Shown here in pieces: positions 4,138-62,733 of a stretch of DNA of 64,000 bases; position 1 is the stretch's first letter, and each line of letters starts with the position of its first letter. Position numbers and translations under genes: made by a program. Where the stretch lies: assembly GCF_964213995.1 (NCBI RefSeq), contig NC_135819.1, positions 67,146,001-67,210,000 on the forward strand. The letters run 5' to 3'. The notes under the pieces were generated by a model. The model had not been told where the DNA came from. It was given only the letters and a program-made list of their open reading frames with translations, and made no database searches. The DNA comes from Mustelus asterias (lineage: Eukaryota).

Positions 4138-4875
4138 AGATGCCGGTGTTGGATTGGGGTGGGCAAGATGAGAGGTCACACGACACCAACAGGTTCATTT
4201 GAAATCACAAGCTTTCGGAGTGCTGCTCCTTTGACAGGTGAAGTGGAGAGAAGCGCGTATGCACAGAATATGTGAGCGGAGTGACAATAGCCCGATACTC
4301 TCAGGTAATCAAGCATGTCAACGGATAAGTGCAGTGTAGGCCAGCTAAATAACAATTACAGATAAGCACGAGTGCGAATAGATAAGTGCAAGCAGTTAAG
4401 TATAATCAGTATATGTAAAGTGTCGACAGGCTGTATAACAAGTGAAGGGATGACCTAAGAACCGATAATTTAAGGCAGAGAGATAATTACAAATAATCAA
4501 AGATGGTGCTAAACACAATGCAAACTAATTCAGGCAGAGCGATTGTCACATGGAATAAAGGTGTGTATGGTGTCAAAACAAGAACATTAGGAAGATTTTT
4601 ACCCCACAGAACAGTATGATGGGGTCACATATAGTGCAACATGAACCTGAGATCCCAGTTAAGGCCATCCTCATGAGTGTGGAACTTGGCTATCAGTTTC
4701 ACCTGTAAAAAAATTGTTATTCAGCCGGCCTACACTGCATTACACTGTACTTATCTGTTGACACTCTACCTGAGAGTGTCGGCCTATCATCACTCCGCCC
4801 ATATATTGAGTGCCTGCATGCCTCTCTCTGCTTCACCTGACAAAGGAGCAGTGCTCTGAAAGCTTGTCATCTCAC
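4138..4875 (-). mobile_element. Penelope-like element fragment with inverted pseudo-LTR segments
   Basis: Minus strand near 4645-4700 reads KLIAKFHTHEDGLNWDL, resembling the C-terminus of a Penelope GIY-YIG ORF; inverted segments with decayed hammerhead cores at ~4200-4243 and ~4831-4870. Confidence 0.7.
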
Positions 4876-7680
4876 GGTGACTTATGTTTTGGACTGCTGT
4901 GACTGTAGTTCCTGGAAGCCAATATGTTTGTCATTTTGCATTAGCAGCACTTTATAAATTGCATTCAGCAAATTACCTTATCTTTCTCTCCTGCTTTGCT
5001 TCTTTGACCAACCTTCAACTAATATTTCCCTGTGGCTCAGTGTCAAATGTCTGTTAACCACTCCTGTGTATTGATATATTTTACTACCTCAGGGCACTAT
5101 ATAAATGCAAGTTGTTGACAGTTTTTAAAAAAATAATGTTTTTATTGAAAGTTTTCCATGTTACATTTGACCACAAAATGCAACAAATTCCCAAAATCCA
5201 GCATAGTACAGTAATCATTATTCCACATAAGCATACTAAAAAGACCAGCAAATACTCATACAAATGATTCAATTTATCAATCATTGTAGTCGCTGTCTCC
5301 CCTTGTACAGAAAAAGAAAGGATACCAGAAAGAAGGGGGGGTATCTCAGGGTAACAGGGTAAAGCCATGAGACATGGCCCTACATCCTCCTCCATAACAT
5401 AACCGGGACAGAGCTACACAATATACAGGATCCCTTATGGAGTAATATACAACCAACTGGGACCAAACTCAACTTCCCCGGACTTCCGGGCAATGAAAGG
5501 ATAAACCAGAAAAGGGGAAACATCAGGATACTGCCATCGGTACAAGATGTGACGTGGCAGTGTATGCTTTCACATTTAGTAACCAGTAAGCCAAGGATTC
5601 ATGCACCTAGGCTCATTACACTACAAGCCTCCCTCCTCTCCAACCATATCCGAGGCACCGATCTGGCTCCCCATCACCAGAAAACATAAACCATTTTCCA
5701 CAAAGGAAACCTTACCATCAAAGAGAAGAAGAAACAGCAAGACACTCATCCACACGGTATCTCAGGGAGAGATAGAATCCTCCTCCTCCTGACAAGATAA
5801 GGGAAACACTCTAAGATTAACAATAACAAATCAGAGTATATCAACACCTCACCTACCTGGATAAAGAAAGGAAACCCCAAAGAGAGAGGAGCACCAGGAT
5901 TATCCAATAGACACCAGATGTGATCTTCGCAGGATGGATGCTAGGAACAGAACAAGAAACAGGAGACTGCCCGCCCCCCTTCCCCACAGGGGAGCCCAAC
6001 TCTCAAGAAGACTGACAGACTGGAAGTCTCCATATAAGACCACTTGGAAGAGGAAGCTTTCTCCTTCAAACAGTGTAATCTCCGACTGAAGAAAGATTCT
6101 GACAATGCTGAACCAAGGCACCCAGACTCTCAGTCAGGCCCTGCAGCCAACAGGGTGCTACATCCCCAAGAGAACCAGGTCTCAAGAAAGAGAGCAATCC
6201 AGAAGCCTCCAAAAGGGGATGTCTCGGGGGAGGGCAATCTATTCCCTTGTTCAACATACCATCCACGTGACGCAGGTACACACAGCCACTATTACTCTAA
6301 TCAAGGGCCAACAAGCCAAGAATACTCATCACTCTTATACATTGAACAAAGCAAACTACCCTGGTCTCTACACACCCCAGAGGAACCATTTAGGCCTCGC
6401 CATCATCATGATTTGACCTATTTCCCCTCATCAGAGGAATTCTAACAACAGGATAAATGCCCACATTCACGAGCCAAGTAATCAAGTAAGCACTCACTAC
6501 CTGTTCAGCCAAATCAAAGTAGAAGTCCAACCTAACAAGGGTAGATATCCAAGGATTAGTCAACTATCCCTGAGCAATCATATATATATATAATTCCTCC
6601 ACTCCTATGACACCAGAGATGCCAACGACAAAAAAAGCACCCAGTCTTTTCCAGGATACATGATCTGTCTGTACCTTCATAGAAACAAGCACGCATTCCT
6701 TAATCCCAAAATAACAAAAATAAAAAAGTAGACTATGACTCTAATAATTTTAACGAGGGAATTTCCACAGCCACAACAATGACTTATAAGGCCATACCAA
6801 CCATGTTTACACCAACCCACCTACCCACCACCCTGCTGTGACACTACTCATCGAAACAATAAAGTGAAGTGAACTAAAAATTGTATTCTCTCGGTGTAAA
6901 TGCAAGGACTACAGCACAGCACAAAGCAGGTAAATACCACGCAACTTTCATGTTGTACAACTAATTCAGCAAGCTCCTCAATAGAAAGAAGGAGATCCAC
7001 AAACAATCCCTAAACTAGCAAATATCTCCAGATTGCAAATACTGAAACCCAAGATTTAGTATTTGACAAAGGGCTAGAAGCAGTGGGGGGCAGATCCTCC
7101 CACCCACCCCATTCCCCTGGTACCAGCCATCTAAACCAAGACTGAATGCACAGTATACTATGGCTTCCCTCGTTCCACCATTAGAGCTCACCGGTGGACA
7201 AATACCATCAAAAAGAAAATATTAACAATCCTGATTATTGCAGTTTAACAGGTCGACAGGCAACAAACACCCCTGTGCTCATATATCATACACCCTCGTC
7301 AGGATAAAAGACAATATCACAATCAGGAGTATAATCACAAAGGAACAAAGTTCAGGATTAATGATAAACTGCAGGATAATATAACCATCATTGGAACTTG
7401 AAAGGGCCAAAGACATGACAAGATCATCAAGCAATGTCCAGGATCCATCCAGAGTTTCACCTCAGCCATGTCGTCATCCCGAAGCTCCCTCTCAGAGTGC
7501 AGATTACACACATCAGGATCGAATAATTATGAGTTTTGCATCAGAATAAAAAACAAATTAAAAGATGAGTGGTGACCGAGCTCCTCGAAATGCAGCCGTT
7601 CCTGTGCTTGCATCAAGTAACCCTGTAAGAAGTCTCACAACACCAGGTTAAAGTCCAACAGGTTTATTTGGGAGCAAAAG

Positions 7681-7721
7681 CCACTAGCTTTCGGAGCGCT
7701 GCTCCTTCGTCAGGTAAGTGG
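7681..7721 (-). ncRNA. Minimal type I hammerhead ribozyme motif
   Basis: Minus strand ttac-CTGACGA-a-GGAGC-agc-GCTCC-GAAA-gcta-gtgg: intact CUGANGA/GAAA core, perfect stem II, palindromic AGCT stem III. Confidence 0.7.
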
Positions 7722-7840
7722 GAGTTCTGTTCACAAACAGGGCATATAAAGACACAAACAAAGACACAGACACAAACAAAATGAGTTTGTGTCTGTGTCT
7801 TTGTTTGTGTCTTTATATGCCCTGTTTGTGAACAGAACTC

Positions 7841-7881
7841 CCACTTACCTGACGAAGGAGCAGCACTCCGAAAGCTAGTGG
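7841..7881 (+). ncRNA. Minimal type I hammerhead ribozyme motif
   Basis: CTGACGA 7849-7855, stem II GGAG/CTCC, GAAA 7870-7873, then gcta|gtgg. Confidence 0.65.
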
Positions 7882-8361
7882 CTTTTGCTACCAAATAAAC
7901 CTGTTGGACTTTAACCTGGTGTTGTGAGACTTCTTACTGTGTTTACCCCAGTCCAACGCCGGCATCTCCACATCAAGTAACCCCGCCATTGACAATTGTT
8001 AGAAGGGGCTTTCTTTGGTGTCTATTGATTGAAGACTTATGACTAGGACATGAGGATGCTACCCCTCTTCTTCAAAGAGTACCCCTGTTCTTGATAGAGC
8101 AGTTTGACTGCTCCTGGGTTCTAGTACAGGATGCTGTATTTCTAAAAGTCTAAGCAGATGTTGAACCGAAATTTCATCCTTCTTGGAGATTTTAGCAAGT
8201 GGCCATTGACCTTTGATTTTGCTGAGTGACCCCTATCAATAACTGAGTCGCCGAATGCTCTGACCGTGGACTAGTTGCATGCTGCTAATTGTCCTTTATG
8301 AATCCCTACGTAGCAAGCAAATTACCATCAAAGCAAGTTTGGTAAAGGGTGAGTAGGTTCA

Positions 8362-9079: not shown

Positions 9080-11110
9080 CAAAATTTGTGTAACGTTCGA
9101 GCTTTGTCTTCTAAGTGGTACGTCATATTGTTACCACACAAATGCCAGGTGATGACTCTCTGCAAGTGGTGAAAGTCCAACCATCTCCCCATGACATTCA
9201 ATGGCATTGCCATCACAAATCCTCTGACCAGTAACGTCCTGAGGGGTTATCATCAACCAGAAAGTCAACTGGACCGGCCACATAAATACTGTGGTGCTGA
9301 GCAGATCAGAGGCTGGATATTCAACAGCAGCCAGCTCACCTCCTGCCCATCATTGTGAAAGCAGTATGATGGGATACTCTGTACTTTCCTGGGTGAATGC
9401 AGCTTCAACAATATTCAAAGCTCAATCATCCCAGGGGAAAGCAACCCACTGCTTCAGCACTCCATCCACCACCTTAAACATTCATTCCTTCCATCATCAG
9501 CACAACACGTGCAAGATATGCTGCAGCAACTCACCAAGGTTCCTTTTGCAACACCTTCCAAACTCACAACCTATACCACCGAGAAAGACAAAGGGAAAAC
9601 CGCCACCGACATATTCTCCTCTAAGTCACATACCATTCTGATGTAGAAATACATCAGCCAGCCTTTCACTGTTGATGGGTCAATATCCTGGAACTCCCCA
9701 ACACTGTGTGAGAACCACATGAACTGCAGTGGTTCAAAGATAGCAGGTCATCACCTTCTCTACTATAACTGGATGAGTAATAAATGCTGGCTTTTCCTTG
9801 ACTTAATAAAGAAATTACTGCAGAGTAATGCTCCATTAATTTTTAATTAAGTAATGGGGTGTGAGTGTTGCTTCCTTCCTTCCTTCCTTAATTGCCCTTG
9901 TGAAGGTGATGGCAAGTTGGTACATGTGGTGTAGGTGCACCCGCAGTGCTGGTGGGAAGGAGTTCCAGGTTTTTGACCTGGTAACAGTGAAGGAACGGTG
10001 ACCTAGTTCCAAATCGCGGCACGGTAGTGCAGTGGTTAGCACTGCTGCTTCACAGCTCCAGGGACCTGGGTTCGATTCCCGGCTTGGGTCACTATCTGTG
10101 TGGAGTTTGCATGTTCTCCCTGTGTCTGCGTGGGTTTGCTCCGGTTTCCTCCCACAGTCCAAAGATGTGCTGGTTAGGTTGATTGGCCATGCTAAAAAAA
10201 TTGCCCCTTGGTGTCCTGAGATGTGCAGGTTCGAGGGATTAGTGGGTAAATATGTAGGGATATGGGTGTAGGGCCTGGGTGGGATTGTGGTCGGTGCAGA
10301 CTCGATGGGCCGAATGGCCTCTTTCTGTACTGTAGGGTTTCTATGATTCTATGGAGTCAAACTAATGTGTGGTCTCGAAAGAAAACTGATGATGTTCCCA
10401 TGTGACTGCTACCCTTGTCCTTATAGCTGGGAGAGATTCTGGTTTGGAATGTGCTGTTAAGGGAGAATTGACGTATTGCAGCAGTGTGTCTTGTAGACGT
10501 TACACTCTGCTTCCCCTGTAGTGGATAGAGGGACGTTTGGAGTGGTGGACGGGATGCCGATCAAGCAGGTTGCTTCTTGCACTCAAACTTCTTGAGTGTT
10601 GTTGGAGCTGCGCTCATCCAGGCAACGTTCCACCACACTTTTGACTTGTGCCTTGTAAATGCAGGTCAGACTCTGGCGAGTCAGAAGGCAAGTTACTTAC
10701 TTAGCACACCATTCTAAGTCTCTGAGCTGCTTTTGTCAGCACCGCAAATATCTGGCTTGCCCAGATCAGTTTCTAGACAGTGCTAACCCCTCAGGATGTT
10801 GACAGTGGTGAAATTCAGCAGCTGAACATCACGGGGAGATGGTTAATCACACGTTTTGGAGATGATCATTGTTGTTTGCCACTTGCCAGCCCAAGCCTGA
10901 TTATTGTCCAGATCTTGCTACATGCAAGGACTGCCCCCCTTATCTGAGGAGTTGCAGATGCTACTGAACTGGGTGCAATAATCACCAATCATCCCCATTC
11001 CGTCCTTATGCTGGAGGTGGTTGGTCTGAAGATGGTCGGACCTGGGACACTCTTCTGAGGAATTGCTGCAGTGATACCCTGGGACTGAGATGATTGACCT
11101 CCAACCATCG
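9080..11110. mobile_element. Cluster of old LINE remnants (same family as 12720-13330) in both orientations
   Basis: Degenerate matches to the MEYSPLA..AAPTTLKKLDTIQD-coding segment and the shared tail; interrupted by the SINE at 10016. Confidence 0.5.
10016..10353 (+). mobile_element. HE1-type V-SINE
   Basis: A/B boxes, V-domain, CTATGATTCTATG tail; near-identical to 23055-23402. Confidence 0.85.
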
Positions 11111-33540: not shown

Positions 33541-33694
33541 AAGCGGGTGGGAGAGGAGCGGTGGAGAGTGAGTGAACACAGTGAGGAGTCTAACACCAGG
33601 TTAGAGAGTGAGTGAAGGCAGAGAGAGAGGGGAAGGGGTGAGAGAGAGGGGAAGGGGTGAGAGAGAGAGAGTGTGTGCGAATGAGTGAGGGAGA

Positions 33695-34222: not shown

Positions 34223-62733
<28,511 letters not shown>

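What the first reader, a model, noticed from the sequence alone, without database searches (positions are those of the whole stretch)
7624..7970. Palindromic mini-element carrying a hammerhead ribozyme on each strand
Seen: 153-bp arms with only 2 mismatches around a 7-nt loop, a 13-bp flanking direct repeat, and a CUGACGA-stem II-GAAA-GCUA core on both strands (7681-7721 minus, 7841-7881 plus). Established: Penelope-like elements carry minimal type I hammerheads in their pseudo-LTRs, thought to act as dimers through a palindromic stem III (here AGCT), and non-autonomous retrozymes exist. Inference: this ~350-bp ORF-less unit is a young foldback retrozyme-like element. Its RNA would be a rod-like hairpin with a ribozyme in either polarity, mobilised in trans by a Penelope RT/GIY-YIG protein.
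Basis: partly seen in the sequence, partly recalled or inferred. Interest (0 to 1): 0.7.

Follow-up and report, generated by a model that had tools for sequence, protein, structure and literature searches.

The report
One-off mirror-image Penelope insertion scar
This palindrome is a real but one-off, mirror-image stub of a very common jumping gene (a Penelope-like retrotransposon), not a self-copying ribozyme element; its two ribozyme motifs are predicted to be locked shut, and a private copying slip present in both arms likely records how the two halves were joined.

Summary
It is not a mini-element family. Its junction occurs once in the 3.68-Gb genome, while the arm sequence has 58,123 exact matches and belongs to a 3.2-kb RT/GIY-YIG Penelope-like element. 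Head-to-head inversion is this family's usual insertion product: 74 of 99 sampled ends, with turn points from about 60 to over 1,000 nt. The one recurring junction tested arose independently. The layout is published (PMC3846280, PMC4209133, PMC8557442). In a whole-unit RNA both ribozymes are predicted to be trapped (+72 kcal/mol). Family statistics favour priming from both cut ends: one tailed plus one tail-less arm, and the tail-less arm is sometimes kilobases longer. This copy adds an 18-nt slippage insert found nowhere else yet mirrored in both arms, which suggests DNA-templated snap-back at the join. The scan found such palindromes and the two-ended reading many times before on other DNA.

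The parts
7611..7623 (.). left copy of the 13-bp target-site duplication
   Evidence: duplications of 9 nt or more in 54 of 65 sampled inverted copies, mode 11-13
7625..7777 (-). inverted, tail-less arm: 5'-truncated pLTR of a Penelope-like element
   Evidence: matches the pLTRs of a full-length element in L149
7681..7721 (-). minimal type I hammerhead motif (C3 7713, H17 7685; stem I 4 bp with two G-U, stem II 5 bp)
   Evidence: family covariation
7743..7750 (-). TATA-like motif of the left arm, pointing outward (function not tested)
7760..7777 (-). 18-nt non-parental slippage duplication, left copy
   Evidence: unique to this locus; family contigs diverge after 7759 (table 7)
7778..7784 (.). 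7-nt loop at the head-to-head junction
   Evidence: junction unique in the genome
7785..7802 (+). 18-nt non-parental slippage duplication, right copy (exact mirror of 7760-7777)
   Evidence: family contigs diverge before 7803 (table 7)
7785..7937 (+). sense arm: 5'-truncated pLTR, parental sequence from position -172 relative to the ORF start region
7812..7819 (+). TATA-like motif, about 30 nt upstream of the inferred RNA start near -132
   Evidence: function inferred
7841..7881 (+). minimal type I hammerhead motif (C3 7849, H17 7877; the fifth stem II pair is broken by the arm-specific change at 7865)
7938..7970 (+). 33-nt Penelope 'tail', on this arm only; in full-length copies the ORF starts just after it
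   Evidence: PMC3846280, PMC11167929
7971..7983 (.). right copy of the target-site duplication; its first 5 bases also match the element's continuation, so the boundary is ambiguous by up to 5 nt

Best explanation
This is a single, 5'-truncated, head-to-head insertion of an abundant RT/GIY-YIG Penelope-like retrotransposon, likely made when the element's enzyme cut both target strands 13 bases apart and started one DNA copy from each cut end, after which the copies were likely joined by one folding back on itself. Steps. (1, inferred) The endonuclease makes staggered nicks, giving the 13-bp duplication. (2, inferred; matches in vitro data on another Penelope) One 3' end primes reverse transcription at the end of the tail and the other about 33-38 nt further 5' on the same RNA or RNA from the same source, giving one tailed and one tail-less arm. 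(3, shown in sequence) Synthesis left the template near -172 and repeated local sequence twice, adding 18 non-parental nt. (4, inferred) That 3' end snapped back over a 7-nt loop and copied itself, which mirrors the insert, then annealed to the other cDNA; repair finished the palindrome. (5, predicted) The product is inert: RNA through the whole unit forms a 153-bp duplex that hides both hammerheads. The hammerhead is a feature of the parent's pLTR, not a function of the palindrome. About 0.93 for 'one-off Penelope by-product'; about 0.5 for this exact two-ended plus snap-back route.
For: Uniqueness: junction matches 1 place; insert matches 2 places, both arms of this unit. Parent: full-length copy in L149 with inverted pLTR + pLTR + ORF + pLTR, about 3.2 kb; Pfam RVT_1 E 1e-8 in L094, GIY-YIG E 0.0014 in L114 (below the curated cut-off). 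Abundance: 58,123 exact 36-mers; 17,963 tailed 35-mers; 210 palindromes turning within 60 nt of one anchor. Sample of the first 100 tail matches on contig C1, one used as reference: 74 of 99 have an adjacent inverted arm, 65 of those 74 stop at the tail boundary, 3 carry a full second tail, 6 end elsewhere; shorter-arm lengths run from 64 to 1054 nt. Two-ended priming: the tail-less arm is longer by more than 100 nt in 9 of 65, up to 2.2 kb, with 12-15-nt duplications in 5 of the 6 inspected. In 30 ends picked without regard to tail, 16 have a tail and 14 do not; 12 of 13 distinct head-to-head pairs have exactly one tail, 1 has two, none has zero (read by eye). Common template: 12 variants shared by both arms and absent from the other sampled loci in 10,343 sites of 57 loci, against about 0.5 expected from the 198 single-arm private variants (expectation is my arithmetic). 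Equal arms (within 20 nt): 34 of 65 against a shuffle mean of 7.5, maximum 18 in 10,000; 21 of 52 against 4.1 after removing the -118 to -141 cluster. Folding: +72.0 and +73.6 kcal/mol to form the hammerhead in the whole unit. Literature: an anole Penelope protein cleaves and extends both strands and starts at two sites that define the tail, and hammerhead mutants do not affect insertion (PMC11167929); cDNA snap-back is seen at R2 5' junctions (PMC11371274).
Against: For this one copy, pure fold-back of a single cDNA fits as well as the hybrid route. A mirrored multi-base insert is rare: none of the 27 symmetric sample loci with a clean centre showed one (7 more had no clean centre). Among 31 other palindromes walked none had an obvious one, though several belong to subfamilies poorly covered by my reference words. 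The one other palindrome with a similar slip (L229) has it on one arm only. Some junctions have 0-1-nt loops (L070, L003, L072, L087), which snap-back cannot easily make. Contigs of a second organism label (X5, X7) cover the loop region at depth 6-7, and one runs from 7951 through the flank with 17 differences in 443. Only 20 letters of it lie on the element side, below the tool's 31-letter bar, so this is a hint. If the insertion is that old, about 6 arm mismatches are expected and 2 are seen (P 0.066), which allows later arm homogenisation as the source of the mirror. 25 of 99 sampled ends had no inverted arm detected. The sample is from one contig and selected for an exact 48-mer, so it leans to young copies.
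Confidence: 0.8

Rival explanations
1. Pure fold-back: one cDNA is primed at the tail, slips, snaps back, copies itself to about -38, and an endonuclease cut or repair step joins it to the other target end.
For: Private insert mirrored exactly; 7-nt loop; excess of equal arms; arms share private variants. Self-priming was proposed for such junction palindromes, on an antisense template (PMC3846280 Discussion); the tail has been ascribed to endonuclease resolution (PMC8557442 passage).
Against: Cannot make copies whose tail-less arm is the longer one (18 of 65 by more than 20 nt, 9 by more than 100 nt). Needs an extra fixed stop at the tail boundary. 0-1-nt loops in other copies.
Confidence: 0.2
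2. Two-ended priming with simple end-joining; the mirror of the insert arose later by template switching or gene conversion between the arms, or both cDNAs copied an RNA that already held the insert.
For: Arms are more alike than the possible age suggests; other slips are unmirrored (L229, L092).
Against: No source copy with the insert in the assembly. Each arm keeps one private change (7672, 7865), so any homogenisation was local or old. Older palindromes in the sample show 5-13% arm divergence, so homogenisation is not general.
Confidence: 0.2
3. One reading: a non-autonomous, self-propagating palindromic retrozyme whose rod-like RNA self-cleaves in both polarities and is mobilised in trans.
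For: Intact core motifs on both strands; family-level covariation of stems I and II; short palindromes are very numerous; retrozymes derive from pLTRs (bioRxiv 10.64898/2026.07.22.740005, abstract and first part).
Against: Junction unique. Continuous size range, 97 to 2657 nt. The recurring junction tested (12 loci) spans several subfamilies with the tail on the right in 9 and on the left in 3. The same palindrome forms the 5' end of a full-length element. The hammerhead is trapped in the hairpin. Retrozymes are head-to-tail tandems.
Confidence: 0.04

Closest known systems
Inverted-pLTR insertions of endonuclease-bearing Penelope-like elements (Adineta Pen2a/Pen2, PMC3846280; general scheme, PMC8557442)
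   Same: Head-to-head inverted 5'-truncated pLTR, 30-40-bp tail on one side, target duplication, palindrome at the junction, TATA and Inr-like motifs in the pLTR.
   Different: This copy has no ORF remnant; its junction carries an 18-nt non-parental insert mirrored in both arms.
Opposite-strand pairs of minimal hammerheads 100-700 bp apart (PMC4209133)
   Same: Minimal type I motif with extra base after A9, G10.1-C11.1 pair, palindromic stem III; the authors relate dispersed and opposite-strand motifs to truncated Penelope-like elements.
   Different: Described there for Schistosoma; activity of this variant is untested.
Anolis Poseidon element studied in vitro (PMC11167929)
   Same: Two reverse-transcription start sites bounding the tail; both target strands cut and extended; ORF start close to the pLTR end.
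   Different: Poseidon clade, ORF starts within hammerhead stem II; here the ORF starts after the tail and the protein has a cysteine-rich RT-EN linker. The parts read do not explain inverted ends.
Non-LTR retrozymes (bioRxiv 10.64898/2026.07.22.740005)
   Same: ORF-less, pLTR-derived, type I hammerhead.
   Different: Retrozymes are head-to-tail repeats of a fixed unit with two or more same-strand ribozymes; this is a single head-to-head unit with a unique junction.
L1 twin priming and R2 cDNA snap-back (PMC11371274 passages; twin priming itself recalled)
   Same: Inversion from second-end priming; antisense sequence from cDNA self-priming.
   Different: L1 twin priming inverts without duplicating the 3' end (recalled); here both arms copy the same region from two fixed start sites.

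Membership tests
EN+ Penelope-like element insertion | Sequence continuous with an RT + C-terminal GIY-YIG ORF | tested here: met
   (RVT_1 above cut-off in L094; GIY-YIG E 0.0014, below cut-off, in L114)
EN+ Penelope-like element insertion | pLTRs at both ends of full-length copies, with adjacent inverted truncated copy | tested here: met
   L149: inverted pLTR 1177-1326, pLTR 1331-1510, ORF, pLTR ending 4503
EN+ Penelope-like element insertion | 30-40-bp tail on one side and a target-site duplication | tested here: met
   33-nt tail, 13-bp duplication; family-wide
EN+ Penelope-like element insertion | Minimal hammerhead motif in the pLTR | tested here: met
   260 motif instances, 176 distinct; stem I pair 1 C-G 192 / U-A 46, stem II pair 2 G-C 194 / A-U 36; 95-99% paired at stem I pairs 1-3 and stem II pairs 1-4. 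Core required by the pattern; counts are instances, not events
Neptune/Nematis clade | [quoted passage not shown] | tested here: met
   Cys/His cluster before the endonuclease in L113, L114, L149 translations; criterion from PMC8557442
Neptune/Nematis clade | RT phylogeny places it in the clade | not tested
   no reference RT set was at hand
Non-LTR retrozyme | Head-to-tail tandem with two or more same-strand hammerheads | tested here: not met
   single head-to-head unit
Non-LTR retrozyme | Multi-copy unit of fixed structure | tested here: not met
   junction matches 1 place; sizes 97-2657 nt
Non-LTR retrozyme | Self-cleaving, circular RNA | not testable with these tools
   only contigs were available; folding predicts occlusion

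The most novel reading that the evidence does not exclude
Penelope inverted ends are made by a dimer that primes reverse transcription from both cut target strands at two fixed RNA sites (one tailed, one tail-less), and the two same-sense cDNAs are joined by more than one route: run-off at the RNA 5' end near -132, annealing at micro-palindromes, or snap-back synthesis. This copy, with a genome-unique slip mirrored in both arms, is a rare direct fossil of the snap-back route and would reconcile the self-priming and two-ended models.
Probability: 0.45. Interest if true: 0.55.

Novelty: new member of a known kind. Interest (0 to 1): 0.22.

Why it matters
As an object it is ordinary: one of many thousands of Penelope stubs in this genome, in a published layout. 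Its value is as evidence on an open question: how Penelope-like elements make inverted ends, which PMC8557442 and PMC11167929 describe as unresolved. The family gives thousands of datable products and two testable predictions: tailed and tail-less arms pair one to one, and joining includes DNA-templated snap-back. Tens of thousands of near-perfect palindromes could also be a source of long double-stranded RNA or cruciform instability, which was not tested.

Tried and rejected
Rfam: no hammerhead family matched in the whole window (E up to 5) or in 7790-7990 (E up to 10); the miRNA and sRNA hits are generic hairpin matches below gathering scores. Self-propagating family: rejected. A variant shared by the two same-junction loci did not mark a palindrome clade: 51 matches, and the 30 examined have many different junctions (one gave no alignment). 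Run-off at the RNA 5' end (lead from earlier notes): supported for the family, since 23 of 164 arm ends fall at -128 to -137 against 21 in the 28 positions before and 11 in the 30 after, but rejected for this copy, whose arms reach -172, upstream of the TATA-like motif at -163. Empty-site allele: not seen; the left flank 7589-7605 had no cover in X5, X7 or X10, which proves nothing. Pfam found no domain in the 412-aa L149 frame and only a weak RVT_1 in the other. Single-arm monomer folding gave hammerhead probabilities of 2e-9 and 5e-8, but ignores tertiary contacts, dimers and protein help, so it is not counted as evidence of inactivity. Three paper searches showed no paper proposing two-ended priming for Penelope inverted ends or describing this family; the library lacks most subscription papers and Repbase, and no supplements were read.

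Full report
Observation. The window shows a palindrome with arms 7625-7777 and 7785-7937 (153 bp, mismatches at 7672 and 7697), a 7-nt loop, and a perfect 13-bp direct repeat at 7611-7623 and 7971-7983. The right arm continues for 33 nt (7938-7970) with sequence the left arm lacks. Each arm holds a minimal type I hammerhead motif: core, an extra base, stem II, GAAA, a self-complementary 4-mer and a 4-bp stem I. Rfam does not detect it.

Parent element. A search of the own genome (3.68 Gb) returned 87 matches from 40 of 2,452 candidates scored, both palindromes and single arms 96-98% identical. Long copies continue upstream into reading frames with a reverse transcriptase motif, a Cys/His linker and a GIY-YIG-type endonuclease. 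Pfam gives RVT_1 at E 1e-8 and GIY-YIG at E 0.0014, the latter below its cut-off. Locus L149 holds a decayed full-length copy of about 3.2 kb: inverted pLTR, pLTR, ORF starting just after the tail, pLTR. This is the arrangement described for Adineta Pen2a (PMC3846280, passages and Discussion read) and drawn as typical in PMC8557442 (passages). The linker suggests the Neptune/Nematis type; no tree was built. Earlier scan notes call such families shark; I did not test the host.

Is it a family? No. The junction 27-mer with 1 mismatch allowed matches only this place. A 36-mer of the arm matches 58,123 places, a tailed 35-mer 17,963, and 210 palindromes turn within 60 nt of one anchor; the 50 listed have visibly diverse centres, one perfect micro-palindrome appearing twice. 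I took the first 100 of 3,664 exact matches of a tail 48-mer, all on contig C1, and used one as reference. Of 99, 74 have an adjacent inverted arm and 25 have none detected; 65 of the 74 stop at the tail boundary; 54 of those 65 have a duplication of 9 nt or more; unit sizes run from 97 to 2657 nt. One pair shared a junction. That junction occurs at 12 loci from several subfamilies, with the tail on the right in 9 and the left in 3, so it is a hotspot. Opposite-strand pairs of minimal hammerheads 100-700 bp apart were noted in 2014 and related to truncated elements (PMC4209133, parts 1-2 of 4 read). Non-LTR retrozymes are defined as tandem repeats (bioRxiv 10.64898/2026.07.22.740005, part 1 of 5 and passages), which this is not.

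The ribozyme. Across 260 motif instances in the fetched loci, stems I and II covary between subfamilies, so the fold is probably selected in the parent. In the palindrome it is predicted to be silent. In either polarity the sense motif follows its complement (nt 226 after 62 on +, 258 after 94 on -), and forcing stems I and II costs 72.0 and 73.6 kcal/mol. Published minimal hammerheads cleave weakly and only as dimers, and hammerhead mutants did not affect insertion by an anole element in vitro (PMC11167929, parts 1-2 of 4 read). No RNA data bear on this locus.

Mechanism at family level. The tail-less arm is longer than the tailed arm in 18 of 65 copies, by more than 100 nt in 9, and by 2.2 kb in L138, which has a clean 12-nt duplication. 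Fold-back of the tailed cDNA cannot give this, so the second end is likely primed on RNA. In 30 ends picked without regard to the tail, 16 are tailed and 14 not, and 12 of 13 distinct head-to-head pairs have exactly one tail (read by eye). This matches the two start sites and the extension of both strands reported in vitro. Arms of one insertion share subfamily variants and 12 otherwise absent variants in 10,343 sites, about 0.5 expected by chance (57 loci with 30 or more shared sites; 5 loci with split alignments left out). Arms are equal within 20 nt in 34 of 65 (shuffle mean 7.5). Part of this is a peak of ends at -128 to -137 (23 of 164), about 30 nt after a TATA-like motif, which fits run-off at the RNA 5' end, a lead taken from earlier notes. 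The excess remains without that peak (21 of 52 against 4.1).

This copy. Its arms reach -172, upstream of the TATA-like motif, so it is not a run-off product. Inside that point both arms carry the same 18-nt duplication of local sequence. It matches only these two places in the genome. A looser pattern finds three other slips at this spot: two in copies without an inverted partner and one in a palindrome, on one arm only. The simplest reading is that one arm's inner part was copied from the other as DNA. Snap-back of cDNA 3' ends is documented at R2 junctions (PMC11371274, passages). I therefore favour two-ended priming with snap-back joining for this copy (about 0.5), against pure fold-back (0.2) and later homogenisation or a lost template (0.2).

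Against my reading. Mirrored inserts are rare. Some junctions have 0-1-nt loops that favour annealing between two cDNAs. Contigs of a second organism label cover the loop and the right junction, with 17 differences in 443 flank bases; this is below the tool's bridging bar but hints that the insertion is older than 2 mismatches imply (P 0.066). The sample comes from one contig and favours young copies. Supplements of the cited papers were not read and may show junction data.

Verdict. A real feature, known in kind, and seen many times by this scan on other DNA. Interest 0.22. The most novel open reading is mechanistic: probability 0.45, interest 0.55 if true.

Noticed in passing
window 37418-37725: A second head-to-head palindrome from a sister subfamily, with a different, asymmetric junction and a hammerhead motif in each arm; neither arm shows a tail in the stretch printed.
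   Followed up: partly
window 41260-41423, 4138-4246, 4621-4867, 33572-33606: Older fragments of related Penelope-like families; 41260-41423 has a short inverted end.
   Followed up: no
L100 junction (G000:C1:46078863-46083210) and L007 about 1640-1694: The filler between the arms matches the start of the element's ORF (about 70 nt in L100, about 30 nt in L007), which lies 3' of the tail. This suggests a template jump on an RNA that extends beyond the initiation site, in line with internal initiation (compared by eye).
   Followed up: partly
L196-L225: In a separate set of 30 matches, 8 arms end at exactly -131 to -133, with or without an inverted partner; likely the RNA 5' end. The pattern excludes shorter arms.
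   Followed up: partly
L060 (G000:C1:25901463-25904510): Palindrome whose tailed arm holds a direct duplication of about 53 nt containing the hammerhead, giving two same-strand ribozymes head to tail: a possible seed of a retrozyme-like tandem.
   Followed up: no
window 9665-9697 and 9959-9991: 33-nt inverted repeat, 82% complementary, 261 nt apart; possibly a small DNA transposon.
   Followed up: no
window 40724-40810 and 61598-61687: Short hairpins that give sub-threshold miRNA matches.
   Followed up: no
window 7869-7888: In single-arm RNA the bases just after the cleavage site pair with the GAAA side of the core, giving an alternative hairpin that would block the ribozyme in this subfamily.
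   Followed up: no
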